64,000 nt of DNA from IMG/VR virus record IMGVR_UViG_2832142748_000002, positions 1 to 64,000 of that record; one strand, written 5' to 3'. Below the pieces are notes generated by a model, which had not been told where the DNA came from, did no database searches, and saw only the letters and a list, made by a program, of their open reading frames with translations. A program made the translations under genes and the position numbers. This document shows positions 7,847 to 45,306 of the stretch, piece by piece; position 1 is the first letter of the stretch; each line of letters opens with the position of its first letter. This stretch comes from a virus (taxonomy: Duplodnaviria; Caudoviricetes).

Positions 7847-9412
7847 TCACTGCTTAACCATGAATATACAATTTTCCACCCATGGTAAAGTCCACCGGCA
7901 CGGGGCGATCCGCCTTGGGCCCCTGCCAGCGTCACGCGCCCGGTGGGGGATGACGTAGAGGAAGGACGGGAGCCCTCCGGGTACCCGATCCAGCGAACGC
8001 GCCTGAACGTCACCGGACAGCAAAACGCCCTGCTTCCCGTGGGGTTGGGAAGCAGGGCGAGTGACCCCGACAGGAATCGAACCTGTGGCCTGCGGTTTAG
8101 GAAACTGGCCAGTGGGGATTGAGCGGCCTTCCCCAGCCTTCCTCTGCCTTGCCAAACCTTCGTTTTTATTCACGTTTCGGCCTCCATGTAGGTCCTCAAC
8201 CTTCCTTGGTAATACCTGCGCTTCCTCAGTCTTCACGCCACGTGGACGCCACGGGTCGAGCGTCGCCGCCACGGCGTCGGAGCCCGCGCGAACGTGCTCA
8301 GGCAGCGCCACCGCGTAGTGCGCGCGCGTCGTCTCCACGTCCGCGTGGCCCAGCACTTCGGCCACCAGGCGGATGTCCTTCGTTGTCTGGTAGGCCACCG
8401 TCCCCCACGTGGAGCGCAGGTGCTTGAAGCGCAGTGTGAGGGGAGTGCCCTTGGGCCACAGCTGGAAGTTGCACCGCGGGCACCGTGAGGGGGCATCGTT
8501 CTGGCGCTCCTCCCGGAAGCCGCAGCCTTTGCGCCGACACACGTGCGTCCAGGCCTGCACCAGGCGGGCCCGCACGAGGGCGCGGCGGATGATGTCGTGG
8601 ATTCGCCAGCTCGGCCCGAAGGGCTTAGTCGTTCCGGGCCGCGGGAAGAGGTGGGGGCCCGGCGTCGCTAGCTGTTCCTCAAGCGTCGGTACCAGCACCT
8701 CGGGAATGGGCACCCGACGCTCGCGCCCACCCTTCGTGGTGTCGCGGTGTCCGCTCCGGCGCACGAGGAGGTAGCGCTCCACGAGGTGGACCTCGTCCTT
8801 GCGCAGCACGCGCACCTCGCCCTTGCGGAGTCCCGTCAGCACGCTGGTGGCAACAGCCGGGCGATGCTCCGGGCTCAGGGCGGCGAAGAGCTGGGCGACC
8901 TGCTCCGGCGTGTAGAAGCCCACTTCGCGCTTGGGCACTCGCACCTTCCCAGCCTTCTTGAAGGGATTGGGCCCGGAGAAGAGGCCGGCCTTCTCGTCCA
9001 GGAACGAGTAGAGGCCCTGCCCTGCCATCCGCACGTGCTCACGCGACTGGGGGGAGAGCTTCGTCAGCTTCGCGAGCACCTGAAGCACGTCCGCCGGCGT
9101 GACGGAGTCCACGAGTCTGGTGCCCAGCGCCGTCGCCACGTAGCGCAGCTTCTGCTCCAGGTTGCGCTTGCTGGCGAACTCCGGCGGAAGTGCATCGAGC
9201 CGCATGCGGATGGCCGCAGCCACGGTCGGTACCTCTCGTCGCTCCGCCTCCAGTCCGGCTTCCTCTCGCCACGCGCGATGCTCCACTTCGTGCGCTTCGC
9301 GGCGCGCCTCAGTGAGCGTTCTCGCGGGAATGACCCGACGGTGCGGCTTACCGTCCTTCCCCACCCAGCCAATCCGGAACTTCCCTGACGGCAGCTTCTG
9401 CGCCCAGGCCAC
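7847..9412 (-). CDS. int: Tyrosine integrase whose C-terminus reads through att into flanking DNA
   Basis: Catalytic motifs TGLRKGE, FKHLRSTW, VLGHADVETTRAHY; Cys-rich insertion; the ORF crosses the tRNA fragment. Confidence 0.95.
   Translation of the reverse strand: MAWAQKLPSGKFRIGWVGKDGKPHRRVIPARTLTEARREAHEVEHRAWREEAGLEAERREVPTVAAAIRMRLDALPPEFASKRNLEQKLRYVATALGTRLVDSVTPADVLQVLAKLTKLSPQSREHVRMAGQGLYSFLDEKAGLFSGPNPFKKAGKVRVPKREVGFYTPEQVAQLFAALSPEHRPAVATSVLTGLRKGEVRVLRKDEVHLVERYLLVRRSGHRDTTKGGRERRVPIPEVLVPTLEEQLATPGPHLFPRPGTTKPFGPSWRIHDIIRRALVRARLVQAWTHVCRRKGCGFREERQNDAPSRCPRCNFQLWPKGTPLTLRFKHLRSTWGTVAYQTTKDIRLVAEVLGHADVETTRAHYAVALPEHVRAGSDAVAATLDPWRPRGVKTEEAQVLPRKVEDLHGGRNVNKNEGLARQRKAGEGRSIPTGQFPKPQATGSIPVGVTRPASQPHGKQGVLLSGDVQARSLDRVPGGLPSFLYVIPHRARDAGRGPRRIAPCRWTLPWVENCIFMVKQ
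8021..8059 (-). terminator. Rho-independent terminator of the host tRNA gene
   Basis: Perfect 13-bp stem cgccctgcttccc/gggaagcagggcg followed by TTTTG on the minus strand, immediately 3' of the tRNA fragment. Confidence 0.8.
8061..8105 (-). other. Prophage att core: displaced 3' half of tRNA-Arg(CCU), not an intact tRNA
   Basis: Minus strand reads GT-TTCCTAA-ACCGCAGGCC-ACAGG-TTCGATT-CCTGT-CGGGGTCA-C (anticodon loop CCT, T-arm, acceptor 3' strand). The D-arm and 5' acceptor strand are absent. Confidence 0.85.
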
Positions 9413-9414
9413 GG

Positions 9415-9618
9415 TTACTTCCCTCCCCGCTGCTGCATCTCACGCCAGGCCAGGAGCCGCGCCGGGTCGAACCGCAGTGAACCGCCCACCTTGAAGCTGG
9501 GAACGCTGCCCTCTGCCGCGAGGCGGTAGAGCGTCTTCTCGCTGATGGCGAGGAACTGGGCGGCACGCCGCACGTCCCACGCGTCCTGCATCTGGCCGTT
9601 GCTGACTTCGCTGTTCAT
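9415..9618 (-). CDS. xis: Excisionase-like HTH protein
   Basis: WDVRRAAQFLAISEKTLYRLAAEGSVPSFKVGGSLRF (HTH_17 pattern), directly upstream of int. Confidence 0.85.
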   Translation of the reverse strand: MNSEVSNGQMQDAWDVRRAAQFLAISEKTLYRLAAEGSVPSFKVGGSLRFDPARLLAWREMQQRGGK

Positions 9619-12624: not shown

Positions 12625-13422
12625 ATGACGGGCACCAACACAACCACGGGCACCGCGGAGAAACCGCCGGAGCGCAGCTTGGTGCGCAAGCTGGCCGAGG
12701 TCATGGGCGAGGTGGAGCGCGTCCCGAAGTCAGGGCGCAACGACTTCCACCGCTACGACTACGCGACCGAGGCAGACATCGTCTCGGCCGTTCGGAAGGC
12801 CATGGCGGACCGCGCCCTCATGCTGATTCCCTCCGTGGTGAAGACGGAGTGGCGCGAGGTGGAGCGCAACAAGGGCGGCAAGGACCGAATCGCAACGCTG
12901 ACCGTGCGCTTCACACTGACCGACGGCGACAGCGGCGAAGAGCGGTCGTTCGAGGTGCTCGGCGAGGGGCAGGACCAGGGCGACAAGGCCACGTACAAGG
13001 CGCTCACCGGAGCGGTGAAGTACGCCTTGCTCAAGCTCTTCCTGATTCCCACTGGCGATGACCCGGAGGATGACGGGCAAGGCCAAAGCCAGCAGTCCCA
13101 GCGCGGAAGCCAGCAGCGCCCTCGTCAAGCAATGGACGACGGACCGCCCCCTCAGCGCACGGGTGCCCCGGCTCCTCGCACTACTCCTCGGAGTGGAGGT
13201 GCCGACGACGTCGCCGCCGCCATCGTCTCTGAAGCCGAGCAGGTGACCAAGGAGGAGTTCCCCGCGCTCTACGGGCGTGCACAAGGCCTCCCCAAGGGGA
13301 GCAAGGCTCGGGAGGTGGCGGGCGAAGCCGTGAAGGCCTCCGCAAAGCGCCTGGGCTTCTCTGCCAAGCAGGTTGCCGCCATGCAGAAGCCGGTGGGACG
13401 CGAGCCCGGCGCGGAGGGCTGA
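12625..13422 (+). CDS. erf: ERF-family ssDNA annealing recombinase
   Basis: KLAEVMGEVERVPKSGRNDFHRYDYATEADIV...GEGQDQGDKATYKALTGAVKYALLKLFLIPTGDDPE. Confidence 0.9.
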   Translation: MTGTNTTTGTAEKPPERSLVRKLAEVMGEVERVPKSGRNDFHRYDYATEADIVSAVRKAMADRALMLIPSVVKTEWREVERNKGGKDRIATLTVRFTLTDGDSGEERSFEVLGEGQDQGDKATYKALTGAVKYALLKLFLIPTGDDPEDDGQGQSQQSQRGSQQRPRQAMDDGPPPQRTGAPAPRTTPRSGGADDVAAAIVSEAEQVTKEEFPALYGRAQGLPKGSKAREVAGEAVKASAKRLGFSAKQVAAMQKPVGREPGAEG

Positions 13423-15767: not shown

Positions 15768-16178
15768 GTGGCGACGAAGACGGAGACGAAGAGCAGTGGT
15801 GGCCTGCTGGAGCTGGCAGAGAGGCTGGAGGAGGTCGCGCAGCTGCTGCGTGACACTGTGGCGAAGCTGGGTGGCGTGGTGACGTCCGCGCCCGCGGCGA
15901 AGGCGCCCCTGGCGAGCGCGGCCAAGCCGTCGAAGCCCGGCACGGCGAAGGCGGCGCAGGAGGACGGCACGCGCGTGTGCGCCATCAAGGGCTGCGGCAA
16001 GCCCAGCCGGACGAAGGGCTACTGCGCGGCGCACTACCAGAAGCTGCGCAACCTGGAGAAGACGAAGCGGCGTCCGGCGGACTGGGTGGACGACGCGAAG
16101 CCGAACACGGTGGAGGACGTCCTCCTGCCGCGCGGCCGCGCCGCCTCGAAGGCGCTGGCGGAGGCGAGCGCCCAATGA
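15768..16178 (+). CDS. VegA-like (myxobacterial histone-like vegetative protein) homologue
   Basis: C-terminal CAIKGCGKPSRTKGYCAAHYQKLR.LEKT.RRP.DW...LPRGRAASKALA matches the M. xanthus VegA C-terminal domain as I recall it; Ala/Lys-rich linker. Confidence 0.7.
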   Translation: MATKTETKSSGGLLELAERLEEVAQLLRDTVAKLGGVVTSAPAAKAPLASAAKPSKPGTAKAAQEDGTRVCAIKGCGKPSRTKGYCAAHYQKLRNLEKTKRRPADWVDDAKPNTVEDVLLPRGRAASKALAEASAQ

Positions 16179-17703
16179 AGCCAGCGGACGTCAGCGGCCT
16201 GCCGAAGGAGCTGGAGGAAGTCCGTCGCATCGCACTGGGCGAAGTGCCCGCCGATGAGGCGCAGGTCCGGGCCGCGCTGGCTCAGGCATGGGCCTGGCTC
16301 GCGCCGCTGACGTCCGCACTATTGCCGGCTGAACCGTCGCCCGGCGCGGCGAAGCACACGACCGAGGATGTGGAACGGTGGTTCCGGGCAGTGGTCGCGC
16401 GGACAAAGGGTTCCACCGAAACGGTGATGGCCCGGATGCTCCGGGACGCCGCGCTGGAGGGCGCTAAGGTGCCGGGGCTGGTGGCGGACAACGCCGTCCT
16501 CCTGAAGCTCGCCCTGGATGACGTCCCCGCGTGCGATTGGCAAAGCGGGCGGGGCACGTGTGACGAGACGGGGCGCCAGCCGCGGTGCCAATTCTGCCTG
16601 CGCCGGGATGAGCTGATGAACAGCCCCGGCGCATCCATGCTCGCAGAGCACGAGACGAAGGTGTCCGCCCTCCAGGCCCAGGTGGCGCATCTCACGGCCG
16701 AACTGGACAACCTGAAGGACTGCGAGCAAGGGGCGAATGCCGTTGCAGTTGAGGCGATGGCTGCGCAGCGCAAGGCCGAGTCCGAGCAGGACGAAGAACG
16801 CAAGGCGGTGGAGGCGATGACGAAGGCCATCGACAAGCACCTCCCCGGCATCTGCCCGGCGCAGTCCCCGGACGAGGGCATCCACCTGCTGGCCGAGCAG
16901 CGCGACGCCGCCCAGGCCCGCGTGGCGGAGCTGGAGCGCGAGTTGCGCATTCGCAACGATGACCACGCTTTCGAGCAGGACATGCGCATCAAGACCGAGT
17001 CCGAGCGCGACGCCCTCCGCGCAGGTGGAGGCGGTGCGCGACAGGGCGACTGAGGTGGCGGCGGCGCGGCAGGATCTGGCGGAGTGGGATCAGCAGACCG
17101 TGCTCTCATTCGAAGGGCTCCAGAAGGAAGGGCTCTCTGCATTCACCGAACTCTCGGCGGCGTTGGGGGAGGTTGTTCCTCGCCATCCCCGCCCCGCCCG
17201 CCGAGACGCGAGCCGACGAGGCGTCATGCGCGGGTGACGTCCCACCGTGCGAGGACTCCATGTGCGGCGACCCGGTGTGCACGAAGCACCGCGGCGCAAC
17301 GCCCGCCCCGAACTCTCCGGCTCTTCCGGAGGGTTCGACTCCGCCCGCCGAACCTGAAAGCGGGGCTTACACGTTGGCGGCGCGACGCTGGCTGGCGGCC
17401 GTTGAGCGCGCGGCCTCGAATGAGGCCGTCGCGAGTCGCTACCTAGTCAACGCCAATGGCGCATCCGTCCACCCCGGGGCGCTGCGCGAGGCCGTCCGCT
17501 GGGTGCTCCGCGGAGACGAGCCGGTTTGCGGCGAGCCCTCCACCGTGCAGGGCAGCGGCAAACCCGCCTCAAACCCCATGCTGTCCGCGCTCGACGTGCG
17601 CACCGCGGCGCCGCCGGGTCTGCGAGTGCGCGCCTTCGTTAACACCGTCATCGCAACAAGGGCCGGGCTCTCCTCTTCCTGTCCCGGCTCCTCACTCGCT
17701 TGA
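16175..17703 (+). pseudogene. Coiled-coil phage protein apparently broken by two frameshifts (about 17020 and 17180)
   Basis: ERDALRA continues as QVEAVRDRATEVAAARQ in another frame, then a third frame carries DVPPCEDSMCGDPVC. Confidence 0.5.
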
Positions 17704-33678: not shown

Positions 33679-35814
33679 CTAGATGGGCTGCTTGATGTTG
33701 TGGCTGAGGAGGCCCGCGGACTCGTACGTCCGGGCCCCGTGCACGGTGAGCTTCACGACGGCGCCCTCCCCTTCCGGCGCGACGCGCCGCACGAGCCCCG
33801 GGCGCAGGCCCTCCAGCAGCTCGCCGGGCCGAAGCGCGCGGACCTGCGTCCAACCTGCGAAGCGCCGGTAGACGAGGTGGTTGGGCGTCGCAACCAGGAC
33901 GCGGCCATCCGTCAGCTCCACCCGCCAGCGCGCGGCCCGGTGGCTGGAGGCGGCCGTCACCTCAAAGGTGCCCACCCGGCGCGTGTCCTCGTGCTGGGTG
34001 AGGACGCGCATGCCGGGGCGGATGGACGCCGCAGGCACCTCCTGCCCGTCCTCCAGCGTGATGAGCGTCTCGGGCGCTACGCATGTGCCGCCCGTCCCGC
34101 CGGAGCCGCCGCCGCCGCCACCCGCGGGCGCGCCACTGAAGGGCGAGGTCGTGGACTTCGCGAAGTTGATGCCCAGCCCGGCGCCGAACGTGGGGGTGAA
34201 CCACATGGAGGCGCTCACGCCGTAGACGCCGTGCACCTCGCACAGGAGCGCGACGTACTCTCCCAGGTTCTGGCCGTAGAGCCCCGAGAGGGCCGCCGGG
34301 TACTGGAAGGTGTGGGTGATGGCGATGCGGTTGACCGCGTTGCCGTCCACTGCGGCGGCGTACTTCCGGTCCGCGAGGGTGATGTAGCGCGTGCCCCGGT
34401 ACGTGGCGCTGACGCTGCTGTAGTAGTCCACCTTGAGGTAGCGGAGCGCGTCGAGGTTGTCGTCGATGCTGGAGGGCTGGATGAAGAAGTGGTGCACCAG
34501 CCAGGAGTGGACGATGGGCGTCGTGTACCGGAAGTAGTCCGTGCACTGGACGTCCAGCCGGTCAATGAGCGGCGCCCCGCCGCGCACGCCCGTGTTGTTG
34601 CTCCCCCGGTAGTGGACGCGCCCCGCGGCCGATGTCCCATCCAGCGCCTGGTTGGCCCGGAAGAAAGGCGTGTCCAACAGGTAGCTACCAATCTGCACGT
34701 TGCCGCCGGCCGCCTTGAAGGCGGTGCCCACGTTGTCTAGCTTCGCCCCGGCGACGGGCACGCCGTTGCCGTCCTCCGCGTAGTTGGACGTCTGGAGGGT
34801 GTTGGCCACAAGCAGGTCGAACGTCACCATCTTCCGCATGGAGATGGCGTCCAGGTACACGGCCTTGCCGGCGTCCGCTCCCACGGCATTGAGCTCGAAG
34901 TACAGCTGCACGCCGGTGCACCCGGCCGGGCACGTGCCCTTCAGCTTCACGCGCTGGTAGCCCGTCGTGAGCGTGACGGCGACGGAGGTGATCTGACCGT
35001 CGTAGCTGCCGCTCGCCCCCTCCCAGAGAAGGAAGAGCGTCGCGCCAGACTGGGCGAGCGCGGCCGAGGACTTCACCCAGGCCTCGGCGTAGAACTGATC
35101 CCCAGCGGTGCACTTGATGCGGCCACCGGGTGCGGTGCTCCGGTAGCCGCCGATGAAGTTGAGGCCCACGAAGCCGCCCCCCACGGGCACGGGCAGCTTG
35201 CGGCACCAGCGCCCCTCCTTCGCGCTGGAGGGCTCCTCCACCAGCCTGTCACCCTCGGGGGACTGGCCCAGTGCGGCCGCGCCGGCTTCCGAGTACCCGT
35301 TGGGCACCAGGTTGTCCGTGGGCGGCAGCAGCAGGTGCGTGAAGCTGATGGCCGCCGCCGCCACCGCGGCGCTGGTGACGGAGCTCGCCGACATGTGCCG
35401 GGCGTAGACGCTCCCCGTCGGCACATTGGAGAGGTCCGCCACTGCCATGGTGAGGGTGTCCGGGTCCGCCACCACGCTACCGCCGAGGACGCGCCAGTTG
35501 CTCTGGCTGCCGTTGGTGTAGAGGGCCTGGACAGCGCACTGCACCTCCGTCGGCAGCTTCAGCTTCAGCGGCGCCACCCACCGTCTCTCGGAGGGGCCGA
35601 ACTTCCGGGGCTCCAGCAGGTAGCTGTCCGTGTTGTTGGGGTCGCTGCCCTCGTAGACGACGACCTGGAAGCCCGCGAGGAGGTGCGCGGGGAGCACCTC
35701 CTCGTGCGTCCAGCGGATGTCCAGGTAGCGCGACTTGACGAGCTGTGGGGAGCGGACGCCGTCCACCTCCCGGTCGTAGACGCCGGCCGCTTCTTCCTGC
35801 TCGCGCGAGCGCAT
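33679..35814 (-). CDS. Tail fibre / receptor-binding protein with a C-terminal Hint domain
   Basis: FN3-like N-terminus, CBM-like segment (NLVPNGYSE), Gly linker, Hint C...ATPNH...LLSHN (33697-34083). Confidence 0.8.
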   Translation of the reverse strand: MRSREQEEAAGVYDREVDGVRSPQLVKSRYLDIRWTHEEVLPAHLLAGFQVVVYEGSDPNNTDSYLLEPRKFGPSERRWVAPLKLKLPTEVQCAVQALYTNGSQSNWRVLGGSVVADPDTLTMAVADLSNVPTGSVYARHMSASSVTSAAVAAAAISFTHLLLPPTDNLVPNGYSEAGAAALGQSPEGDRLVEEPSSAKEGRWCRKLPVPVGGGFVGLNFIGGYRSTAPGGRIKCTAGDQFYAEAWVKSSAALAQSGATLFLLWEGASGSYDGQITSVAVTLTTGYQRVKLKGTCPAGCTGVQLYFELNAVGADAGKAVYLDAISMRKMVTFDLLVANTLQTSNYAEDGNGVPVAGAKLDNVGTAFKAAGGNVQIGSYLLDTPFFRANQALDGTSAAGRVHYRGSNNTGVRGGAPLIDRLDVQCTDYFRYTTPIVHSWLVHHFFIQPSSIDDNLDALRYLKVDYYSSVSATYRGTRYITLADRKYAAAVDGNAVNRIAITHTFQYPAALSGLYGQNLGEYVALLCEVHGVYGVSASMWFTPTFGAGLGINFAKSTTSPFSGAPAGGGGGGSGGTGGTCVAPETLITLEDGQEVPAASIRPGMRVLTQHEDTRRVGTFEVTAASSHRAARWRVELTDGRVLVATPNHLVYRRFAGWTQVRALRPGELLEGLRPGLVRRVAPEGEGAVVKLTVHGARTYESAGLLSHNIKQPI

Positions 35815-35824
35815 GCCCTCCCAT

Positions 35825-38305
35825 TTACGGAGGAGGCGTGGACGAAATCCCCAGGGTAAGGGTGGCAGGCACCGTGGGCACGGACACCACGAGGACGCTC
35901 GCCGCGCTGGTGCTGTAGTTGCCCGAGGTGTCGATGGCCTTCACGTGCACCAGCTGGTTGGTGCCCGGCGCCGGCAGGGCCCATTCGTAGGTGGTGGCTC
36001 GCACCTTGCCGATGAGGCTGCCCACCTCCCAGCTGCTGCCGTAGCGCAGCTCGTAGGTGTCCCGGTCCAGGTCCGGCACCTCCGCCCAGCGCAACGTCGC
36101 GGTGCTTCCGTTGAGGACGCAGGTGAGGCCCGTCACGTTGGAGGGAGGGGCCGCCTTGCCCACCACGGTGTGGCTGGCCGAGGCGTAGGTGGTGACGAGG
36201 CCGTTGAGGACGGCGGCCACCTGGACGGTGTACTCGCCCGGCAGGCAGTCCTGGAGCTCCCAGAAGTGCGTCTGCACCGGTGGCTCCGACGTCCAGTTGC
36301 CGCCCTCGCGCCGCCAGCGCACGCGGTACTCCGTGGCCGTGGCCACCTGCGTCCAGCGGGCCGTCACCATGACCTTCACGCCACCATTCGTCGTCTTGTA
36401 CAGCGACTCGCCCACCGCGAGGCCCGCAGGTGGCGCGGACGAGGGCAGCACGGACGTGGGCAAGGGCTGCAGCTTCACGCCGTGCTCCACCTCCGCGTAC
36501 TTCCCCGGCTCGTGGCGCAGGGCGGTGATTTCGTAGAGGTGCGGCTCCACCTCCGCGACGTTGAGGATGCGCCAGAGGGTGGGCGTCAAGTCGGACGCGG
36601 CCAGCACCCAGACGGCCTGGGGCTGGGGCGCGGCCGAGAAGGGCGTGGCCACCGTGAGGGCCCGGTACGGCGCCGGCGCGAGCGCGGCCAGCGGGCGCTC
36701 CTCCACGGTGCCGTCCGGCAGCACCGCGGAGAGGGCGTACGTCTTCCCTGCTTCCAGGGTGACGTCCGCGTCGAGCTCCACCTGGCTGGCGGTGGCGGCC
36801 ACCACGCGCCCGCCCCACCTGCGCCCGGCGCGGTATGGGTCCTGGAGCTTCACCACGGCGCCGGGGTTGCGCATGGCGCCCTCGAAGCCGGTGCGGAACG
36901 TCACCGTCTCCGTCTCCAGCCTCTCGGTGAGGAGCAGCCACCGGCCCACGCGCTGCGCCTGGCCCCGGGAGGTGCAGCCGAGCGCCACCACCTCGGTGGG
37001 GTTGTAGCCGTAGGTGGCGAGGCCCTCTTCGTCGGTGACGTACTCCTGGGCCACCTTGAAGTGGTTGTCCGGGTCGTTCCAGCTGACGAGGGCCACCGTG
37101 TGGCGTGCGCGCTTGCCGCTGGAGGCATACGTGAAGAGGCCCTCCACCACGTTGGCCGGCGTGAAGAGGTACTCGGCGTCGCGCGGCGCGTCCTGGGCGA
37201 CGAAGACGGCGCCGGAGGCCCAGTACGTCATGCCGCGGAAGACGGACGCGAGGTTGTTGATGACCTTGTACGCGTCCTCCTGCGTCTGGAGGTAGAGGTT
37301 GCAGCGGAAGCGCGGCTCCATGCCGCCCTTCCCGTCCGGCACCAACTCGTCGCAGTACTTCCCCACCGTGTAGAGGCCCCATTTGTCCACGGCGGCCTCG
37401 TTGAGGTAGCGGCCCAGGCCGTAGCGCTTCGTCGTCAGCAAGTCGTAGAAGCACCAGGCCGGGTTGTCCGTCCAGGCCACCTTCCACGTGCCGTCCCAGG
37501 TGCCCTCGTACGTCCGGGCCACGGGGTTGTAGTTGCTGGGCACGCGCACCCGCAGCCCGCGAATCCGGTAGCTGCGCGTGGGGATGCTGCTGAACTGGCT
37601 CGCCGGCACCTGCAGCGCGCAGAGGGCGGTGTTGGGGAAGGAGAGCTTCTCGTCCAGCAGCGTTGCGTAGGACTTCCAGAGGACCTTGTTCTGCTTCGTG
37701 ACGCTGTCGGCCTCCTCGCTGACGCGCGTGACGCGGATGTCCCACGGGGGCGAGCCCGTCAGCTCCACGCGGAAGGTGCGCTCGTAGGGGCTGGTGCACT
37801 TCCCGCGGAAGAGCTCCGCGCCCTGGAAGGACTGCTCCACGTAGCCGCCGCCGTTGCTCTGCACGGCGATGGAGACGAGGACGCGGGTGGGCAGCAGGTC
37901 GCCCGTCGTCGGATCCTGGTAGGTGAGCTGGGGCGCCTGGAGGGTGACGCGCACGGCGTCCACCCCCGGGTCCGTCACGGTGCGCACCACCGGGGTTGCG
38001 TGCTTCACCTCCACGCCCACGGAGTACTCCGCCTCGCCGGACGGGAAGCCGGGGATGTACTCCTGGGACTGCGTGCCGCGCACGTCGTAGACGGTGACGC
38101 CGGTGAAGTTGAAGGTGCCGTCGGGATTCTGGATGGCGACGCCGTCCAGGTAGACGGACTTCAGCCCGTCGACGAGGCCCTGAATCTCCCCCTCGCACAG
38201 CAGGTCCAACACGCGCGCCTTGGAGCTGGACTTCAACGTGTTCGGAGACTCGACGGGCGTCCGCTGGGCGCCGCCCTCCCCCTTGCCGCCGCTGCTGCCA
38301 CCCAT
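35825..38305 (-). CDS. Lambda gpJ-like central tail fibre / host specificity protein
   Basis: TPVESPNTLKS...DLLCEGEIQGL...AWTDNPAWCFYDLLT..RYGLG; FN3 repeats. Confidence 0.92.
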   Translation of the reverse strand: MGGSSGGKGEGGAQRTPVESPNTLKSSSKARVLDLLCEGEIQGLVDGLKSVYLDGVAIQNPDGTFNFTGVTVYDVRGTQSQEYIPGFPSGEAEYSVGVEVKHATPVVRTVTDPGVDAVRVTLQAPQLTYQDPTTGDLLPTRVLVSIAVQSNGGGYVEQSFQGAELFRGKCTSPYERTFRVELTGSPPWDIRVTRVSEEADSVTKQNKVLWKSYATLLDEKLSFPNTALCALQVPASQFSSIPTRSYRIRGLRVRVPSNYNPVARTYEGTWDGTWKVAWTDNPAWCFYDLLTTKRYGLGRYLNEAAVDKWGLYTVGKYCDELVPDGKGGMEPRFRCNLYLQTQEDAYKVINNLASVFRGMTYWASGAVFVAQDAPRDAEYLFTPANVVEGLFTYASSGKRARHTVALVSWNDPDNHFKVAQEYVTDEEGLATYGYNPTEVVALGCTSRGQAQRVGRWLLLTERLETETVTFRTGFEGAMRNPGAVVKLQDPYRAGRRWGGRVVAATASQVELDADVTLEAGKTYALSAVLPDGTVEERPLAALAPAPYRALTVATPFSAAPQPQAVWVLAASDLTPTLWRILNVAEVEPHLYEITALRHEPGKYAEVEHGVKLQPLPTSVLPSSAPPAGLAVGESLYKTTNGGVKVMVTARWTQVATATEYRVRWRREGGNWTSEPPVQTHFWELQDCLPGEYTVQVAAVLNGLVTTYASASHTVVGKAAPPSNVTGLTCVLNGSTATLRWAEVPDLDRDTYELRYGSSWEVGSLIGKVRATTYEWALPAPGTNQLVHVKAIDTSGNYSTSAASVLVVSVPTVPATLTLGISSTPPP

Positions 38306-38306
38306 G

Positions 38307-39365
38307 TCAGTCCTCCACCGTTGGGTCCGCCTTCTTCACGTTGTGGCTGAGGAGGCCGTCGGAGACGTAGGTGTGCGCGCCCGCCACGGTGAGGCGTACC
38401 ACCGGCCCGCGCTCACCGCGCGTCACCTGGCGCACCACGCCCGGCCGGGCGCCCACCAGTCGCGTGCCGGCCGCGAGGTGCCGCAGTTCCACCCAGGCGT
38501 CCTCCGTCCGCACGCGGTGGGTGCCGGTGGCCTCCAGGCGTCGGCCGTCCTCCAACTCCAGCAGCCAGCGGACGCCCTCGGCGGGCTCCGCTGCGATGAC
38601 GGGGAAGACGTCCCACTCCAGCGTCTCCTCGTCCTGGGTGCGCACCGCCATGCCCACCTGGACTTCGCCTGCCGGCACTTCCCGGCCGTCCGCCAGGAGG
38701 ATGGGCACCCACGGCGCGGGGCAGGTGCCGCCGCCAGGGGTGGTTCCGCCGACGCCCGTCTGTCCGCTGCCGCTGTTGCCCCCGAAGCCGCCGTCGGACC
38801 ACTCGGTGACGATGCCGGCGGAGACGACGCAGCTGCCCACCTCCATCTCCCCGTAGCAGATGGGCACCGGGTGGCCCTGGGCGAGCGTGTTGACGGGGCC
38901 GTTGAAGACGTAGCTGGGCTTGTTGGCGTCCTTCTCGTCAGGCCCATTCGCGGTGGGCGGGGCGAAGAGGAGCTGGGAGACGCCGCCGGCCATCAGGGAG
39001 ATGCCCGCGGTGATGAGGGGCACGCCCGCGCCGTACCCGTAGACGGAGAGGACGACGCCGGCGGCGATGAGCACCGCACCCGCCACCACCTGGAACCAGC
39101 CGGACTTCGCCCCGGCCAGCGCGGGCATGAGGGTGAGGACGCGCGCGCCGGTGGGCATGCCCAGGTCGTCCTCCCCCACGTCCCGCTTGCCCGCGAAGAC
39201 GTGGTAGCCGGGCTCGCTGTTCTCCGCGAGGTAGCGCCGGAAGCCGTCGCAGACGGCCGAGAGGGCGCGCACCGCCTCCGCAGGCGAGGGCACCGAGAGG
39301 TCCATCTTCCACACGCGCCCGAAGCGCTTCCCCAGCGGACCACCCAGGACGATGGTCGTCAGCAT
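38307..39365 (-). CDS. Lambda gpI-like tail assembly protein with an appended Hint domain
   Basis: LGGPLGKRFGR..SPAEAVRAL...FNGPVNTLAQGHPVPICYGEMEVGS; Hint C...ATGTH...LLSHN (38340-38723). Confidence 0.9.
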   Translation of the reverse strand: MLTTIVLGGPLGKRFGRVWKMDLSVPSPAEAVRALSAVCDGFRRYLAENSEPGYHVFAGKRDVGEDDLGMPTGARVLTLMPALAGAKSGWFQVVAGAVLIAAGVVLSVYGYGAGVPLITAGISLMAGGVSQLLFAPPTANGPDEKDANKPSYVFNGPVNTLAQGHPVPICYGEMEVGSCVVSAGIVTEWSDGGFGGNSGSGQTGVGGTTPGGGTCPAPWVPILLADGREVPAGEVQVGMAVRTQDEETLEWDVFPVIAAEPAEGVRWLLELEDGRRLEATGTHRVRTEDAWVELRHLAAGTRLVGARPGVVRQVTRGERGPVVRLTVAGAHTYVSDGLLSHNVKKADPTVED

Positions 39366-40090
39366 CGGGAGACGTGCCTCACGACGCGCTGGGTGATGCG
39401 CTCCCAGAAGCCGGAGTACGTCTCCCGGCCGGACAGGCGCCCCATGACGTGGTGCAGGAGGACATCCCCGCCCAGGTAGACGCCCGCGTGGTTGGGCACC
39501 GGGGCGCGCAGCTGCATAAGGAGGACGTCATGCTCGCGCAGGGCCTGGCCCGTCACATCCACGAAGCCCGCCCGGCCGAAGCCCTCCTGGTAGAGGTTGC
39601 CACCCTTCGCCCACCAGTCGTCCGGGCGCTCGAAGTCGGGCAGTGCCAGGCCCAGGCGCTCCCGGTAGTAGTCCTGGATGAGGGAGTAGCAGTCCAGGAC
39701 GCCGTGGCTGAAGGTGCGGCCCACCAGCGGCGGCCGGTAGCCGTCCGGGTACCAGAGGCACCAGTGCCCCACCGGCACGTTGAGGATAAGCCAGGGCAGG
39801 CCCCAGCGCTCCATCATCACCCGGTCCGCCTCGCTCGGCTCCGGCGCGGCGTTGGGGTGGGAGTGCACCACTGCCACCACCTCGCCATCCCCTTCCGCCC
39901 GCGCATAGTCCTCGGGCGACAGGACGAAGTGCGCCTGGCCGTCGGCGAGGTTCCGGCAGGGCCGGTACCGCTGGGCGCCTCCAACCAGCACCACGAGGCC
40001 GCAGGACTCGCGGGGATAGTCCGCCTGGGCGTGTGCGAACGCGGCGCCCAGGACGTCATCAGCCAGCGTCAGCCGGCAGGGGTCGACCAT
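39359..40090 (-). CDS. Lambda gpK-like JAB + NlpC/P60 tail assembly protein
   Basis: RESCGLVV, VHSHPNAAPEPSEAD, GVLDCYSL, NHAGVY. Confidence 0.92.
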   Translation of the reverse strand: MVDPCRLTLADDVLGAAFAHAQADYPRESCGLVVLVGGAQRYRPCRNLADGQAHFVLSPEDYARAEGDGEVVAVVHSHPNAAPEPSEADRVMMERWGLPWLILNVPVGHWCLWYPDGYRPPLVGRTFSHGVLDCYSLIQDYYRERLGLALPDFERPDDWWAKGGNLYQEGFGRAGFVDVTGQALREHDVLLMQLRAPVPNHAGVYLGGDVLLHHVMGRLSGRETYSGFWERITQRVVRHVSRC

Positions 40091-40146
40091 GCCGGCATCG
40101 TCGGCGGTAGCGTGGACGACGTCCCTTCAGACTCTGCACGCCAACA

Positions 40147-40974
40147 TCAATGCTGCATCTCGTTGATGACCGCATCCACGAACTGCAGGCGACACTCCGG
40201 AGCGGGATGTTTCGACTGCGCTTCGCCCTCATCACATCGGATTGGCAGAACCAGAGCCGGCTGCTCGCACGAAACGGAATTGATCCCGGCATCGGCAAGA
40301 TCGGCACGGGCGCGCGCAATCATCTTGGCGACAGGCGTATTGGGCGACTCGGCGAGAGCCCGGAGTTCCTCGTTCGTGACAACACCACCGTCGGCGCGCT
40401 TCATGTTTGGCCCTCTCAACCGGAGCATCAGCTGGAAAGAGCATGACTCAACGGAACGCGCGAACAGGCGCGCGCTCTCTTTATCTATTTTATCCTTCGC
40501 CTTTGGCCCGGCCCAGGCCACCCGACAGTCCTTGATGACGGGCCGCTTGAGGAGGAGGCCTCGCACTGTACCGTGGAAGGCAACAAGCTGCCCCTTCGCC
40601 AGCTCCGCGACGGCTTGCATCTGCTCGTCCGGAACAAGGCACATGACAGAGCTCATCATCTCGCCCACGTCCAGCGAGATGACGATGTTATCTGTCGCGT
40701 CCTTGGCAATGTCTTGGATGAGTCCCGTCACCTCCACCTGCTTGCTGCGGTACTTCATGTCCGCTGCCACCTCGTTCTCGGCGTAAGCCTCCCAAAGCTG
40801 GCGCGGGCCCACGAGGATGAGCCCTGGTGCGGCAGGAGCTGGAGGTGGACTGGGAGCCCTGGCGGCTGGGCCCGAGGTATCGCTGGGTGCTGCTGCCACC
40901 TGCTCCGGGGCCCGTCCCGCCTCCTGCTTGCACCCGACTACCGTCAGCACTGCAACAAGCCACCACGCGCGCAT
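40147..40974 (-). CDS. OB-fold (tRNA_anti-like) lipoprotein moron
   Basis: Lipobox VVG-C; YAENEVAADMKYRSKQVEVTGLIQDI. Confidence 0.75.
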   Translation of the reverse strand: MRAWWLVAVLTVVGCKQEAGRAPEQVAAAPSDTSGPAARAPSPPPAPAAPGLILVGPRQLWEAYAENEVAADMKYRSKQVEVTGLIQDIAKDATDNIVISLDVGEMMSSVMCLVPDEQMQAVAELAKGQLVAFHGTVRGLLLKRPVIKDCRVAWAGPKAKDKIDKESARLFARSVESCSFQLMLRLRGPNMKRADGGVVTNEELRALAESPNTPVAKMIARARADLADAGINSVSCEQPALVLPIRCDEGEAQSKHPAPECRLQFVDAVINEMQH

Positions 40975-41067
40975 CGTCCCCTCCAGTGAGACGTGGGAGG
41001 ACAGCACGGGGCACCAGAACGACGCAAGGAGTCGGGCTTGGCGGCGGGCGTCTCTGGAAAGGATGGA

Positions 41068-41580
41068 TCACACCTCCACCAGCAGAACCGCCAGGGCCAG
41101 CAGCCGCTCCCGGACGCGGGCGCGCAGGGTGGCGGCGGCGGCCACGGCACGGCGCCAGGCATTCAGCGCGGCGGACGCCTCGCGCGCCAGCTCCGCCAGC
41201 AGCAGCGGCACGGGACGACGCGACAGATTCGTGGCCTGGGCGCAGTAATCACGTGCGGGACCCGTGCGGCCCGCGCTTCGGTACAGCGTGGCCCGGCGTG
41301 CGAGTAGCTCCGCGCGGGCCTCCCCTGACGCGGCGGACACCAGCCTGCCCAGTGGCTCCAGCCGCTCTGCCTCTTCTTCCGGCGTGCCCGTGCCGGGCGG
41401 AGGCAGCAGGTCCAGCAGCGCCTGTGCCGCCCACGCGTCCAGCGGCCCCTCCGCCAGTAGGCTGCGCAGCGAATCTGCGGCGGCGCTCGCGCGGCCCAGT
41501 GCGAGGCACAGCTAGGCTAGTTCGCGGCGGGCCTGACAGCGGGCGTCGCCCGCCAGCCGGGGTCGCAGTTCCACCACGTC
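41068..41580 (-). pseudogene. Fragment A of a large myxobacterial TPR protein
   Basis: ELRPRLAGDARCQARRELA*LCLALGRA...AWAAQALLDLLPPPGTGTPEEEAERLE with an in-frame TAG. Confidence 0.6.
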
Positions 41581-41611
41581 TCCCACGCCTCGCGCAAGTT
41601 GGCAAGCCGCG

Positions 41612-42541
41612 TCAGATGACCTCGATGGTCGGCTCAGCGTCTTCACCAGTGCCAACTGCGAGAACGCTCCGCCGCCGAGCCGGGTCAGCCTTCGAGCGCT
41701 CCTTCGCAACTTTCTGAACGAGGTCAGCTCGGTGGATGGTCGCGGCCGCTTCCGCCTTCACATCGTTCACGACCACGAGGCCGCAGGACGATGAGAGGTG
41801 ACGGGGCACTCCTTTCACCTTGACCGTCTCCCCGGAGAGCGATGCCAAGGCCGCATGCAGGCGACGCCGTGCCTGTTCCAGCGGAGTCGCTGGCATCACG
41901 ACAACAACCTCATCACCGCCCTTTCTGTAGGCATCGCCCACGTCGGAGACTGCCTTTTCGAGGACATGGAAGAACGCCTTGATGGCCTCATCGCCAGTGG
42001 CGTGATCACCGTCCTCGTTGAATGCCTTGAGCCCGTTCATGTCGAGATAGGCCACAGAAACTGGCGAATCTGCCTGGATATTCATAATGGCGATCGCCAA
42101 GTCACGCTCAGCATAGCGTCCATCGTAAAGGATATCAAAAGGCTCTCGAAGCCGGGTCGCCCGAAGCTCGTCTTGCAGTCGCGCCAATTCCAGTCGACCC
42201 AGGTGGCCCATCTCCAGGCCTACAGTCTGCCCCGACAATAGCCGCCCGACAAGCAATGCCTGTTCTCGGCGGTCTTCGCTCTCCATCTGCTGGGCGAGCG
42301 TACTCGTGTATCGCATGTCGATAGAGTCATAGCCCCTTCGAGTATCGGGGCCATTGAGGATGCCGCGATGAATGAGCGACATCACCATTTGCATTTTTTT
42401 CGCGGACATGAACTCACTCCCGCCCAGAGGGAATGAAACGCTAATCCAGCGCTCCTGCTCAAATCGAGCAAGGAACTGCAACTCGCGGAAACGAGCATCA
42501 TTCACGTAGTCAGCCATGCCGGATGGGTCCTCGTGCGCCAT
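41612..42541 (-). CDS. GGDEF-domain protein (diguanylate cyclase-like) moron
   Basis: AYLDMNGLKAFNEDGDHATGD...AYRKGGDEV; novel N-terminal domain; alternative start at 42517. Confidence 0.85.
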   Translation of the reverse strand: MAHEDPSGMADYVNDARFRELQFLARFEQERWISVSFPLGGSEFMSAKKMQMVMSLIHRGILNGPDTRRGYDSIDMRYTSTLAQQMESEDRREQALLVGRLLSGQTVGLEMGHLGRLELARLQDELRATRLREPFDILYDGRYAERDLAIAIMNIQADSPVSVAYLDMNGLKAFNEDGDHATGDEAIKAFFHVLEKAVSDVGDAYRKGGDEVVVVMPATPLEQARRRLHAALASLSGETVKVKGVPRHLSSSCGLVVVNDVKAEAAATIHRADLVQKVAKERSKADPARRRSVLAVGTGEDAEPTIEVI

Positions 42542-42664
42542 ACACAGGCAGCAACGCCTGCTTTGTCAGCGAACCATAAGAGAAGAAGACAACGGGGCAG
42601 AAGCACTATCCCTTGGCCAGCGGAATGCCTCAGGGGTCTTCATGACCCGCCCGAGAAAAGAAGC

Positions 42665-43360
42665 CTACCGGATCAGCCCTACCGCCGGAAATCCCCCGTA
42701 CGGAAGCACTGCGGTAGTCCCAAAGCGCAGCTTGCAGCTTGTGAGGCGCTTCCCGCAGCGGTCCTCGGTGGCACTGGACGTCAGCGTATCGTCCAGCTTC
42801 GCTACCGGGGGCCCCGCGTAGCCGCAGCCCTCCCCCCGGTACTCCCAGGGGCACATCTGCGTGATGATGCGCAGGGGGATGCGGACGCCGTCCAGGTCGC
42901 ACTTCGCGGCCAGGCTGAACTCGATGACGTGCTTGTTCTCCACCGTCTTCTGATCCACCACGAATTCGTCGTCCGGGAAGGCATCCAGCGGCGAGGCGGT
43001 GGGGTTGACGCCCCCGGGGTAGTTCACCGCGTCCAGGTAGCGGACGAAGGTGCGCTTCCGGAGGACGCGCGCGCCCAGCAGATCGTTCAAGTCCCGCGCC
43101 ATGGCGCCGATGGTGCCGGCGACGTTGGCGAGCGTCAGGGTGGGCCGGGGCAGCCGGCCCATGCCCGACTTGTCGAAGCCCTTCACCTGGATGGCCCAGG
43201 GCTCGTACGCCATGCCCTGCCAGACGACGGGCCCGCGGAGGCCATTGGTACCCGCGTGGAAGTGGCTGACGCCCCCGCCAGGCAGGTTGGTGGCGTCCAG
43301 GACGAAGAGCTCCACGAGGGCCCCCGCGTCCAGCCTCTGGATGTCGTTGGCGATGCTCAC
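42665..43360 (-). CDS. Lambda gpL-like minor tail protein
   Basis: VELFVLD...WQG.AY.PW..PRPTLTLAN...CPWEYRGEGCGY...CGKRLTSCKLRF. Confidence 0.92.
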   Translation of the reverse strand: MSIANDIQRLDAGALVELFVLDATNLPGGGVSHFHAGTNGLRGPVVWQGMAYEPWAIQVKGFDKSGMGRLPRPTLTLANVAGTIGAMARDLNDLLGARVLRKRTFVRYLDAVNYPGGVNPTASPLDAFPDDEFVVDQKTVENKHVIEFSLAAKCDLDGVRIPLRIITQMCPWEYRGEGCGYAGPPVAKLDDTLTSSATEDRCGKRLTSCKLRFGTTAVLPYGGFPAVGLIR

Positions 43361-43944
43361 CCTGCCTCCTCCTGGAACGTCGCAGTGAAGTCGTAGGCAT
43401 TGAAGCCCTTCGCGGTGCGGTGCCACTCCTCGCACACGACGTGCGCCACCAGTTCGCCCGCGCCGGTGAAGGTGAGCGCCGCCCCAGCGGCTGGCGCCGC
43501 AGTGAAGGTGACGAGACCCGAGGCAGAGAGCACGTAGGCGGTCCCCGCCACCTGGGCGACGCCCGCCACGTAGACGGTGGGCGGCGCCGACCAGTCTGCG
43601 GCGGGCACCAGCAGATGCGGCATCTCCGGGGACAGCGGACGCTGGAGGAGCCACTGTGTCCGCGCCTCGTCTCCCACCCCGAAGGGCTGCGCGGCGACCG
43701 ACCAAGCTGTGTCCGGGGTGACGAACTCGAAGGGCTCGACGCCCGCGCGGGCGCGCAGGAAGGACTCCAGGGCGTCCGCGTCCACCTTCGTGAGGCTGGA
43801 GAACTGGAGGGCCCAGCGCCGCAGGACGGGGTTGAGTCCGTCCCCGGATCGCTGGGTGTAGCCCTCACCGAACTGCGCCTTGCGCACCCGGAGCACCGAG
43901 TCCGCCTGGGCCCCGTAGTCCGGAGTGAAGGGGAAGCGCTCCAT
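43357..43944 (-). CDS. Lambda gpM-like distal tail protein with an inserted beta domain
   Basis: VRKAQFGEGYTQRSGDGLN...FL..RAGVEPF.F; insert QPFGVGD...GLVTFTAAPAAGAALT. Confidence 0.85.
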   Translation of the reverse strand: MERFPFTPDYGAQADSVLRVRKAQFGEGYTQRSGDGLNPVLRRWALQFSSLTKVDADALESFLRARAGVEPFEFVTPDTAWSVAAQPFGVGDEARTQWLLQRPLSPEMPHLLVPAADWSAPPTVYVAGVAQVAGTAYVLSASGLVTFTAAPAAGAALTFTGAGELVAHVVCEEWHRTAKGFNAYDFTATFQEEAG

Positions 43945-44163
43945 GGCCTACCGCCCCCTTTTGGGCATCCACCTGGTCATGCGGCAGATCATTGGCGACA
44001 GCGTGGACGGTGGCCGTCGTGACTTCGAGGCAGTCCTGAAGCGCAGTCGTCCATCCTGACGCTAGGGCGGACCGCCCCTTCGCTGCATGTAAAGTCTCGC
44101 TCCTCAGGTCCTGCTCCCTAACAAGAGCGTCTCCGCCGCATTTTCCGAGTTACAGTTGCAAGG

Positions 44164-44598: not shown

Positions 44599-44870
44599 GT
44601 CCCTCACCTCCTTGGCGACCCTACCAGACCGACGGGCCAAATACGTGGATCCAGCACGGATCGCACAGCCGAACTCCGAGAGCCTTCGCGCGCACCGATG
44701 TTCACCTGCTTGCCCCGTGCACCCCGCGCGATTCAAGCAGGAAGGGCGCGCGTCAAGGCTACGTCGTCCTGCGGGTCCACAAAGTCCGAAGGCGCGCAGA
44801 CTGCCGGGGTACAATCCTGCGTTCGTTATGCAACCTCGGTGTAGATGACCGAGCGAGACAGGACCATTTC

Positions 44871-45179: not shown

Positions 45180-45306
45180 CGGCCTTCTGCTAGCGGCCCG
45201 GAGGCATCATTACCGCTGACCGCCTGTCACAAGGAGCAGAGCGAACAGATCCGTTTCCTGGCTTGGTCGCGCAGCGCTGCCAGCGTGAAGGCCTTCCCCA
45301 GCGCCG

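What the first reader, a model, noticed from the sequence alone, without database searches (positions are those of the whole stretch)
15768..16178. Prophage homologue of the myxobacterial histone-like protein VegA
Seen: a C-x4-C...C-x2-H motif domain ending LPRGRAASKALA, behind an Ala/Lys-rich linker. From memory, this C-terminal domain closely matches chromosomal M. xanthus VegA, while the N-terminal helical region differs. Inference: the phage may use it as a nucleoid remodeller or a dominant-negative mimic of a core host factor.
Basis: partly seen in the sequence, partly recalled or inferred. Interest (0 to 1): 0.7.

Follow-up and report, generated by a model that had tools for sequence, protein, structure and literature searches.

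The report
Prophage copy of host VegA domain
A complete tailed prophage in a Corallococcus genome carries an early gene whose zinc-finger half was taken from the host's universal VegA protein and joined to a phage-only front end, giving a new example of a phage borrowing a host DNA-associated protein.

Summary
Window 15768-16178 (+) is a real 136-aa gene with a GTG start and GC3 of 0.91. It has a helix, an Ala/Pro/Lys linker, a C-x4-C-x9-C-x2-H finger and a tail ending LPRGRAASKALAEASAQ.

It lies in the rightward early operon of a complete siphovirus-like prophage. The same gene sits in the same slot in six related Corallococcus prophages.

Residues 61-136 are 76% identical to core VegA orthologues (hhalign E 3e-48). 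Identity to the Myxococcus xanthus orthologue is 63% (E 2e-36). VegA-type genes occur in 55 of 61 genomes sampled from the family; the phage type occurs in 2 of 21 Corallococcus species.

The phage copies differ from host VegA in several ways:
- The N-terminal 45 residues have no relatives outside this prophage clade.
- They lack the host's invariant RGRKP/GRP AT-hook-like linker.
- They differ at residues that are invariant or nearly so in the host (M95, Y109, K119).

The finger module occurs in tandem arrays fused to HNH and GIY-YIG nucleases, so DNA binding is the likely activity.

Homology and phage residence are supported. The nucleoid-remodelling and dominant-negative roles are untested. 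A poisoning mechanism through mixed oligomers looks unlikely. The scan noted the same thing on another genome (e1-5867750).

The parts
15768..16178 (+). vegA-like gene of the prophage, 136 aa, GTG start, TGA stop
   Evidence: Homologues of 133-137 aa sit in the same slot of related prophages.
15798..15866 (+). N-terminal amphipathic helix (residues 11-33, GLLELAERLEEVAQLLRDTVAKL) with Leu/Val at heptad spacing; presumed dimerisation helix; found only in this prophage clade
   Evidence: AF2 model helix 11-33. No relatives outside the prophage clade. Not aligned to host VegA by hhalign. Dimerisation is an inference.
15867..15965 (+). Ala/Pro/Lys-rich disordered linker (residues 34-66), weakly basic, without the RGRKP/GRP motifs of host VegA
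   Evidence: pLDDT below 50. Alignments A1 and A5. Four K+R in 31 residues against 10 in 42 in the host linker.
15966..16136 (+). VegA-type C-terminal domain: zinc finger (C71, C76, C86, H89 at nt 15978, 15993, 16023, 16032), basic helix 87-98, conserved W106 stretch, invariant LPRGR (nt 16125-16139)
   Evidence: pLDDT about 90. Invariant columns. 76% identity to host VegA. The finger core superposes on A20-type fingers at rmsd 1.0-1.3 A over 31-33 residues, Z about 3.
16137..16175 (+). C-terminal helix (residues 124-136, RAASKALAEASAQ)
   Evidence: conserved in host and phage copies.
15683..15767 (+). conserved upstream leader with two 9-bp G+C hairpins and the motif CAACAACGAGACGAA before the start codon
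   Evidence: Conserved in five prophages although the gene upstream differs. The folding energy is not unusual for this composition (z -0.73). No sigma-70-like promoter was found.
16175..17053 (+). downstream gene (292 aa) whose ATG overlaps the vegA-like stop (ATGA). Its first 60 or so residues are conserved in related prophages; the rest varies.
   Evidence: no family match. Counterparts are 281 aa, and 776 aa with a MazG-like part.
7847..9618 (-). prophage integrase (7847-9412) and HTH_17 excisionase-like gene (9415-9618)
   Evidence: Pfam Phage_integrase 7.7e-14, HTH_17 7.8e-10
12625..13422 (+). ERF single-strand annealing protein in the same rightward early operon
   Evidence: Pfam ERF 6.7e-19, phrog_155 1.4e-39. 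Replaced by RecT or AAA_24 in sister prophages.
33679..63807 (-). late region: tail fibre, gpJ-like tip, tape measure (47318-51061), major head (56449-57495), portal (59746-61227), large terminase (62251-63807)

Best explanation
The gene encodes a chimeric early phage protein. Its C-terminal 70 residues are a VegA-type zinc-finger/RGR domain captured from the core vegA lineage of Corallococcus-like hosts. Its N-terminal helix and Ala/Pro/Lys linker belong to the phage alone.

Shown: homology, phage residence, conserved position, intact ligands, and the replaced modules.

Inferred: (1) the domain binds DNA; (2) the N-terminal amphipathic helix makes homodimers; (3) because nearly every conserved basic residue and every zinc ligand of the host domain is kept, the phage protein recognises the same DNA features as VegA; (4) because it lacks VegA's first helix and both AT-hook-like linker motifs and differs at M95, Y109 and K119, it is uncoupled from whatever VegA does through those parts. 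During early lytic growth it would therefore occupy VegA-type sites on phage or host DNA as a stand-in or competitor for VegA. This resembles the Lsr2-, H-NS- or WhiB-type homologues that other phages and prophages carry.
For: - Homology is limited to residues 61-136: 76% identity, E 3e-48. Identity to the M. xanthus orthologue is 63%, E 2e-36.
- The phage clade is monophyletic (SH-aLRT 97, UFBoot 94). It groups with core VegA of Corallococcus, Myxococcus and Archangium, not with paralogues C310 and C59. Joining it to C310 is rejected (AU p 0.013).
- dN to Corallococcus VegA is 0.06-0.12, lower than to M. xanthus VegA at 0.14-0.17.
- The gene keeps the same slot in seven prophages or UViGs: the window, L009, L010, L042, L043, L044 and L045. 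Gene context was listed for the first five; for L044 and L045 I saw only the gene and, in L044, its immediate neighbours. In the five with listed context the recombinase is swapped among ERF, RecT and AAA_24 and the upstream cargo varies.
- The finger module occurs in 4-15 tandem copies fused to HNH_3 and GIY-YIG nuclease domains, and at the N-terminus of phage HNH endonucleases. The whole domain is once fused to HTH_17 plus a receiver domain.
- Ligands, basic residues and LPRGR are invariant in 10 phage and 101 host sequences. Host-invariant M95 is N or S in 8 of 10 phage copies. Host Y109 (101/101) and K119 (98/101) are replaced in all 10.
- The host linker has invariant RGRKP and GRP motifs that the phage copies lack.
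- The gene lies on the strand of the early operon and is translationally coupled to the next gene. Neighbours in sister phages are nucleotide-metabolism genes.
Against: - There is no direct evidence of expression, zinc binding or DNA binding.
- VegA's own function is essentially unknown, so 'VegA-type sites' is a placeholder.
- The only structural likeness of the finger is to A20-type fingers, which bind ubiquitin rather than DNA, and at low Z (about 3).
- dN/dS among phage copies is 0.35-0.74. In the domain it is 0.34-0.44, against 0.04-0.19 for host VegA. Constraint is therefore relaxed.
- Nesting inside the crown VegA group is not statistically secured (AU p 0.109).
- No promoter was found, and timing is inferred only from gene order.
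Confidence: 0.5

Rival explanations
1. Classical dominant-negative: the phage protein forms mixed oligomers with host VegA and poisons them.
For: Both proteins begin with a predicted amphipathic helix. MAFFT places the phage helix beside the second helix of VegA.
Against: Profile-profile comparison finds no N-terminal homology. A search with residues 1-45 finds only the prophage clade. The first VegA helix (MSVDKAFR.MIRNEIE.QLKPL), nearly invariant in hosts, is absent.
Confidence: 0.07
2. A phage-private regulator. The captured domain has been retargeted to phage DNA only (for example an origin, a late promoter or a packaging region) and has no bearing on host VegA.
For: Conserved backbone position between the recombination and nucleotide-metabolism genes, and translational coupling to a phage gene with a conserved N-terminus. 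Clade-specific residue changes. Phages often recruit host transcription-factor folds (PMC8612146).
Against: The presumed DNA-contacting residues are unchanged from the host, so a new specificity is not evident. No repeated candidate sites were sought or found in the prophage.
Confidence: 0.25
3. A lysogeny-expressed silencer or 'stealth' protein like CgpS or Sfh. It would be made by the resident prophage to keep phage genes quiet, or to prevent titration of host VegA by the extra DNA.
For: Prophage- and plasmid-borne homologues of host nucleoid proteins do this (PMC5137423, PMC7074111). The prophage is slightly poorer in G+C than the genome (67.5% against 69.9%), with pockets near 47%. A conserved 85-bp leader could hold a promoter of its own.
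Against: The gene lies inside the rightward early operon downstream of the switch region, not beside the integrase/repressor side. No promoter-like site was found. The G+C difference is small.
Confidence: 0.1
4. The conserved domain is a protein-binding module, as A20-type fingers are. The phage copy would titrate a host partner of VegA rather than bind DNA.
For: The best structural matches are A20 zinc fingers in complex with ubiquitin. The residues changed in the phage (M95, Y109, K119) could mark an interface.
Against: Z is only about 3 for a 31-residue motif. The ligand spacing and last ligand differ (x9 and His, against x11 and Cys). The same finger is arrayed on HNH and GIY-YIG homing nucleases, where DNA targeting is the expected role. 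The domain is strongly basic (pI 9.9).
Confidence: 0.08

Closest known systems
VegA ('Vegetative protein') of Myxococcus xanthus and its orthologues; NCBI calls most of them 'cell wall protein'
   Same: The C-terminal 70 or so residues: C-x4-C-x9-C-x2-H finger, basic helix HYQKLR.L.KT.RRP, W, V.D..LPRGRA.SKALA. 76% identity by profile; 63-77% to individual orthologues.
   Different: No MSVDKAFR...QLKPL first helix. No RGRKP/GRP AT-hook-like linker. 136 aa against about 174. Replacements at host-invariant or near-invariant M95, Y109 and K119. Accessory and prophage-borne rather than universal and chromosomal. Higher dN/dS.
Phage- and prophage-encoded homologues of host nucleoid-associated proteins or regulators: CgpS (Lsr2-like, CGP3 prophage of Corynebacterium glutamicum), Lsr2/WhiB-type genes of actinophages, plasmid H-NS homologue Sfh
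   Same: A mobile element carries a diverged copy of a small host DNA-associated protein with a two-domain layout of oligomerisation helix, linker and DNA-binding domain (PMC5137423, PMC8612146, PMC7074111).
   Different: A different protein family (zinc finger rather than the Lsr2 or H-NS fold). Only the C-terminal domain is shared with the host protein. No functional data exist for either the host or the phage protein.
N-terminal zinc-finger modules of phage HNH endonucleases (phrog_5351, phrog_1271) and tandem arrays on HNH_3 / GIY-YIG proteins; Pfam Zf_WRKY19 (PF24906)
   Same: The 25-30-residue finger C..(G/E)C.........G.C..HY.
   Different: No nuclease domain. A single finger followed by the VegA-specific 40-residue tail. 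The Pfam score of 16.3 bits is below the 27-bit cut-off.
A20-type zinc finger (TNFAIP3 ZnF4/ZnF7, ZNF216)
   Same: The predicted backbone of residues 67-100 superposes at rmsd 1.0-1.3 A over 31-33 residues with 19-29% identity. These are the top matches among 48,161 chains.
   Different: Z is only about 3. The spacing is x9 rather than x11 and the last ligand is His rather than Cys. A20 fingers bind ubiquitin in eukaryotes.

Membership tests
VegA family (myxobacterial 'Vegetative protein') | C-terminal domain of about 70 aa with C-x4-C-x9-C-x2-H, W, and LPRGRA.SKALA | tested here: met
   (E 3e-48, 76% identity)
VegA family (myxobacterial 'Vegetative protein') | N-terminal helix MSVDKAFR.MIRNEIE.QLKPL, nearly invariant in 28 orthologues | tested here: not met
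VegA family (myxobacterial 'Vegetative protein') | Basic linker with invariant RGRKP and GRP (AT-hook-like) motifs | tested here: not met
VegA family (myxobacterial 'Vegetative protein') | Universal chromosomal gene (orthologue) | tested here: not met
   VegA-type genes are in 55 of 61 family genomes, and the core copy is in 21 of 21 genus genomes. The phage type is in 2 of 21 and always in a prophage.
VegA family (myxobacterial 'Vegetative protein') | Domain residues invariant or nearly so in the host: M95 (101/101), Y109 (101/101), K119 (98/101) | tested here: not met
   Y109 and K119 are replaced in all 10 phage-clade sequences. M95 is N or S in 8 of 10.
HNH homing endonucleases with N-terminal zinc fingers (phrog_5351 and relatives) | HNH catalytic domain | tested here: not met
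   The match covers only profile positions 6-40 of 171. Pfam finds no HNH.
Pfam Zf_WRKY19 (PF24906) | Score at or above the gathering cut-off (27 bits) | tested here: not met
   16.3 bits, E 0.0089
A20-type zinc finger | C-x2-4-C-x11-C-x2-C ligands and the A20 fold | tested here: inconclusive
   The fold superposes (rmsd 1.0-1.3 A, Z about 3). Spacing and last ligand differ.
Phage-encoded nucleoid-associated protein homologues (CgpS / Lsr2-like, H-NS-like) | Binds DNA broadly and alters transcription or nucleoid structure | not testable with these tools
   Needs EMSA, ChIP-seq and RNA-seq.
Phage-encoded nucleoid-associated protein homologues (CgpS / Lsr2-like, H-NS-like) | Encoded on a prophage and homologous to a host chromosomal DNA-associated protein | tested here: met
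   That VegA is DNA-associated rests on memory and on domain associations.

The most novel reading that the evidence does not exclude
The phage protein is a dedicated anti-VegA factor. By keeping VegA's DNA-recognition domain but shedding its AT hooks, first helix and a three-residue host interface (M95, Y109, K119), it displaces VegA from DNA early in lytic growth. That would switch off a host chromatin or transcription function that no one has yet defined. If so, the phage gene would be a natural separation-of-function allele that reveals what the universal, long-neglected VegA does in myxobacteria.
Probability: 0.15. Interest if true: 0.65.

Novelty: new variant of a known kind. Interest (0 to 1): 0.42.

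Why it matters
VegA is present in nearly all genomes sampled from the family (55 of 61). It was named in 1987, yet I found no functional work on it in the searched library. Databases call it 'cell wall protein', which is probably a misnomer.

A phage lineage has kept only VegA's zinc-finger/RGR domain, changed three residues that are invariant or nearly so in the host, and dropped the AT-hook linker. This amounts to a natural domain dissection. It shows which part carries the transferable activity and which residues are candidates for host-specific contacts.

The case also extends to Myxococcota, and to a zinc-finger family, the known theme of phages carrying diverged copies of host nucleoid proteins or regulators (Lsr2, H-NS, WhiB). 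Without experiments it remains a well-documented homology with an inferred role.

Tried and rejected
- Foldseek against the PDB found nothing for the whole protein or the domain. A sequence search of the PDB found nothing meaningful.
- NCBIfam gave no hit. Pfam gave only a sub-threshold Zf_WRKY19 match.
- No sequenced phage in INPHARED holds the gene or the region.
- The longer ORF from ATG 15627 (183 aa) was rejected as the gene. The antisense ORF 15552-16175 was rejected on codon-position G+C.
- Literature searches for vegA returned author names only. A myxophage review and a 2026 preprint do not mention VegA.
- The upstream hairpins are not energetically unusual. There is no Rfam match in 13500-17500 and no sigma-70-type promoter.
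- The tree cannot name a donor: the crown is a polytomy, and placing the phage clade outside it is not rejected (p 0.109).
- The ESM Atlas returned only the family's own clusters.

Full report
**The gene.** Window 15768-16178 (+) is an open frame of 136 codons starting at GTG and ending at TGA. G+C by codon position (0.68 / 0.57 / 0.91) is that of a real gene in this genome. The frame stays open up to ATG 15627, but that extension is not a gene. All close homologues are 133-137 aa. The stretch upstream of the GTG differs between related prophages by indels that break the frame, and each copy has its own GTG or ATG start at the aligned place. The stop overlaps the ATG of the next gene (ATGA).

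**Anatomy.** AlphaFold2 with a 43-sequence alignment gives:
- a helix at residues 11-33;
- a disordered Ala/Pro/Lys-rich linker at 34-66;
- a confidently modelled domain at 67-123 (pLDDT about 90), made of short hairpins carrying C71, C76, C86 and H89, then helix 87-98 and an extended stretch;
- a last helix at 124-135. The domain alone gives the same picture.

The N-terminal helix has Leu/Val at heptad spacing (L13, L16, L20, V23, L27, V31, L34). I read this as a dimerisation helix, which is an inference. The protein is basic (pI 9.7) and the C-terminal domain has pI 9.9.

**It is in a prophage.** The window holds:
- an integrase (7847-9412, -) and an HTH_17 excisionase-like gene (9415-9618, -);
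- a rightward operon with an ERF annealing protein (12625-13422) and a tRNA-like gene (14384-14452);
- a DNA methylase (27003-27848);
- leftward late genes: gpJ-like tip protein, tail assembly protein I, minor tail proteins, tape measure, head-tail adaptor, major head, scaffold, head morphogenesis, portal and large terminase.

Close homologues of the gene (66-85% identity) sit at the same place in integrated elements of C. exiguus, Corallococcus sp. EGB, sp. bb12-1 and C. exercitus, and in two IMG/VR proviruses. In the four genome loci the backbone is the same (int, xis, small ORFs, recombinase, cargo, this gene, a coupled gene, nucleotide-metabolism genes). The recombinase is swapped among ERF, RecT and AAA_24, and the cargo differs. 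The gene is therefore a backbone gene of a mosaic temperate phage lineage, not a one-off passenger. No sequenced phage in INPHARED carries it.

**Relation to VegA.** The window's genome (10.8 Mb, Corallococcus by its nearest relatives) has four genes with the full domain:
- this gene;
- a 174-aa gene on contig C243 beginning MSVDKAFREMIRNEIEVQLKPL;
- two longer paralogues on contigs C310 and C59.

The C243 type is the one that sources name 'Vegetative protein' in Stigmatella, Archangium, Cystobacter and Melittangium. It has a 178-aa orthologue in M. xanthus AM003. Profile-profile comparison of the phage clade with 28 such orthologues aligns residues 61-136 only, at 76% identity and E 3e-48. 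BLASTP against the M. xanthus protein gives 63% identity, E 2e-36. The N-terminal 45 residues find nothing outside the prophage clade.

**What the phage copies lack.** Host VegA has two further conserved parts. One is the first helix. The other is a very basic linker (pI 12) with an invariant RGRKP and a GRP motif, which resemble AT hooks. The phage copies have neither.

**Distribution.**
- The domain profile finds one to four copies in 55 of 61 genomes sampled from the family.
- In 21 species of the genus, all have the core gene and the C310-type paralogue.
- Five or six of the 21 have the C59 type.
- Only two have the phage type: this genome and one other, which has two copies.

**Origin.** In a tree of 180 domains the ten phage-type sequences form one clade (SH-aLRT 97) inside the clade of core VegA orthologues. 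A careful tree of 38 domains puts the five phage rows (UFBoot 94) in an unresolved crown with VegA of Corallococcus and neighbouring genera, away from C310 and C59. Joining the phage clade to C310 is rejected (AU p 0.013). Placing it just outside the crown is not rejected (p 0.109).

At the DNA level the domain is 82-87% identical to Corallococcus vegA, with dS 0.4-0.6. That is similar to or larger than the dS between Corallococcus and Myxococcus vegA (0.27-0.37). dN is smaller to Corallococcus (0.06-0.12) than to M. xanthus (0.14-0.17). I read this as an old capture from a Corallococcus-like vegA, not a recent one. The donor cannot be named.

**Divergence within the domain.** In 101 host domains and 10 phage domains, the zinc ligands, the basic residues and LPRGR are invariant in both sets. 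Three columns differ:
- M95 is M in 101 of 101 hosts, and N or S in 8 of 10 phage copies.
- Y109 is Y in 101 of 101 hosts, and N or D in 10 of 10 phage copies.
- K119 is K in 98 of 101 hosts, and Q, L or H in at least 9 of the 10 phage copies and never K.

An acidic residue before the first Cys is also lost. dN/dS in the domain is 0.34-0.44 among phage copies against 0.04-0.19 among host genes.

**What the domain does.** There is no solved relative by sequence or by Foldseek. An all-against-all structural search gives A20-type zinc fingers as the top matches for the finger core (rmsd 1.0-1.3 A over 31-33 residues, 19-29% identity). Z is only about 3, and the ligand spacing and last ligand differ.

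A profile search of 1.8 billion representatives is more telling. The first 30 positions (the finger) match 8156 clusters at E up to 0.001. Many of the best hits hold 4-15 tandem fingers, and examples are fused to HNH_3 or GIY-YIG nuclease domains. The finger also heads phage HNH endonucleases. The full 70-residue domain is once fused to HTH_17 plus a receiver domain. This association points to DNA targeting. The invariant PRGR recalls the RGR minor-groove motif of H-NS and Lsr2; that comparison is from my own knowledge and is not tested here.

**Mechanism.** My best reading (about 0.5) is an early phage DNA-binding protein. It would keep VegA's DNA recognition, dimerise through its own helix, and be uncoupled from VegA's other parts. 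It would then act on VegA-type sites as a stand-in or competitor. A phage-private regulator is the main rival (0.25). A lysogeny-expressed silencer of the CgpS kind (0.1), a protein-titrating role for the finger (0.08) and poisoning by mixed oligomers (0.07) are less likely, the last because the N-termini are unrelated. None of this was tested by experiment, and the complex predictor was not available.

**Comparison and novelty.** Phages, prophages and plasmids are known to carry diverged copies of host nucleoid proteins and regulators: CgpS (PMC5137423), Lsr2- and WhiB-type genes of actinophages (PMC8612146) and H-NS homologues (PMC7074111). This case belongs to that kind. It involves a different, zinc-finger family in Myxococcota, and a chimeric protein that shares only one domain with the host protein. 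I found no mention of it in a myxophage review or a 2026 survey. The scan's first stage noted the same feature on another genome (e1-5867750). I rate it a new variant of a known kind, of moderate interest.

Noticed in passing
window 14384-14452 (+): ARAGORN calls a 69-nt tRNA-Thr (CGT), but Rfam finds no tRNA there at E up to 0.1. The stretch is conserved inside the related prophages (window 14367-14532 aligns to L009 and L010), so it is phage-borne, not an attachment site.
   Followed up: partly
window 17456-21295 (+): A 1279-aa ORF with many HEAT repeats and a C-terminal P-loop-like region (GASGLGKS). It lies in a stretch (about 16350-21500) that the sister prophages L009 and L010 lack, so it is cargo specific to this prophage.
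   Followed up: partly
own genome contig C59:4936-5343 (L004, L064); L046 / L066 (Stigmatella aurantiaca CP002271): The C59-type VegA paralogue (231-244 aa) is accessory: 5-6 of 21 species of the genus. It sits in mobile or defence-like islands. In this genome its neighbours are DUF2924 and Amidoligase_2 + GGACT. In Stigmatella they are TIR-NACHT, DUF4365, transposases and a Phage_capsid_4 gene, inside an IMG/VR provirus call. This is a second VegA-like lineage on mobile DNA.
   Followed up: partly
L041 (Logan SRR16630557 contig, gene 1280-1759; P0141): A 159-aa VegA-like protein with a phage-type beginning (MATKTKTQ...) that still has an RRGRKP motif. It lies in a run of short overlapping + strand genes with HTH_3, LexA_DNA_bind and PadR: a possible intermediate or separate phage-borne form.
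   Followed up: partly
P0122, P0126, P0131, P0134 and many others: The 25-30-residue finger C..GC.........G.C..HY forms arrays of 4-15 copies in thousands of protein clusters, some fused to HNH_3 or GIY-YIG. Pfam covers it only weakly (Zf_WRKY19, DUF5763). This genome has three further finger-only genes (contigs C13, C55, C102).
   Followed up: partly
window 16175-17053 (+) and counterparts in L009, L010, L044: The gene coupled to the vegA-like gene keeps a conserved N-terminal 60 or so residues, while its remainder differs between prophages (281 aa; 292 aa; 776 aa with a MazG-like pyrophosphohydrolase part). No family match for the window's version.
   Followed up: partly
window 15683-15745 (+): Two perfect 9-bp G+C hairpins just upstream of the gene, conserved in five prophages although the preceding gene differs. 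The folding energy is not unusual for the composition (z -0.73).
   Followed up: yes
genus-wide: Core vegA and the C310-type paralogue lie 45-75 kb apart on the same contig in every genome where both are on one contig (for example G012 C7, G063, G074, G065). This suggests an old, syntenic duplication.
   Followed up: no
window 25312-25770 (+): A SMI1/KNR4 (SUKH-1) immunity-type gene directly after a 213-aa ORF (24661-25302). The same pair ends the related locus L042. This fits the toxin-immunity cargo noted by another reader.
   Followed up: no
database names: NCBI names most family members 'cell wall protein'. Nothing in the sequence (no signal peptide; a basic zinc-finger protein) supports that name. 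It probably comes from the Ala/Pro-rich linker.
   Followed up: partly
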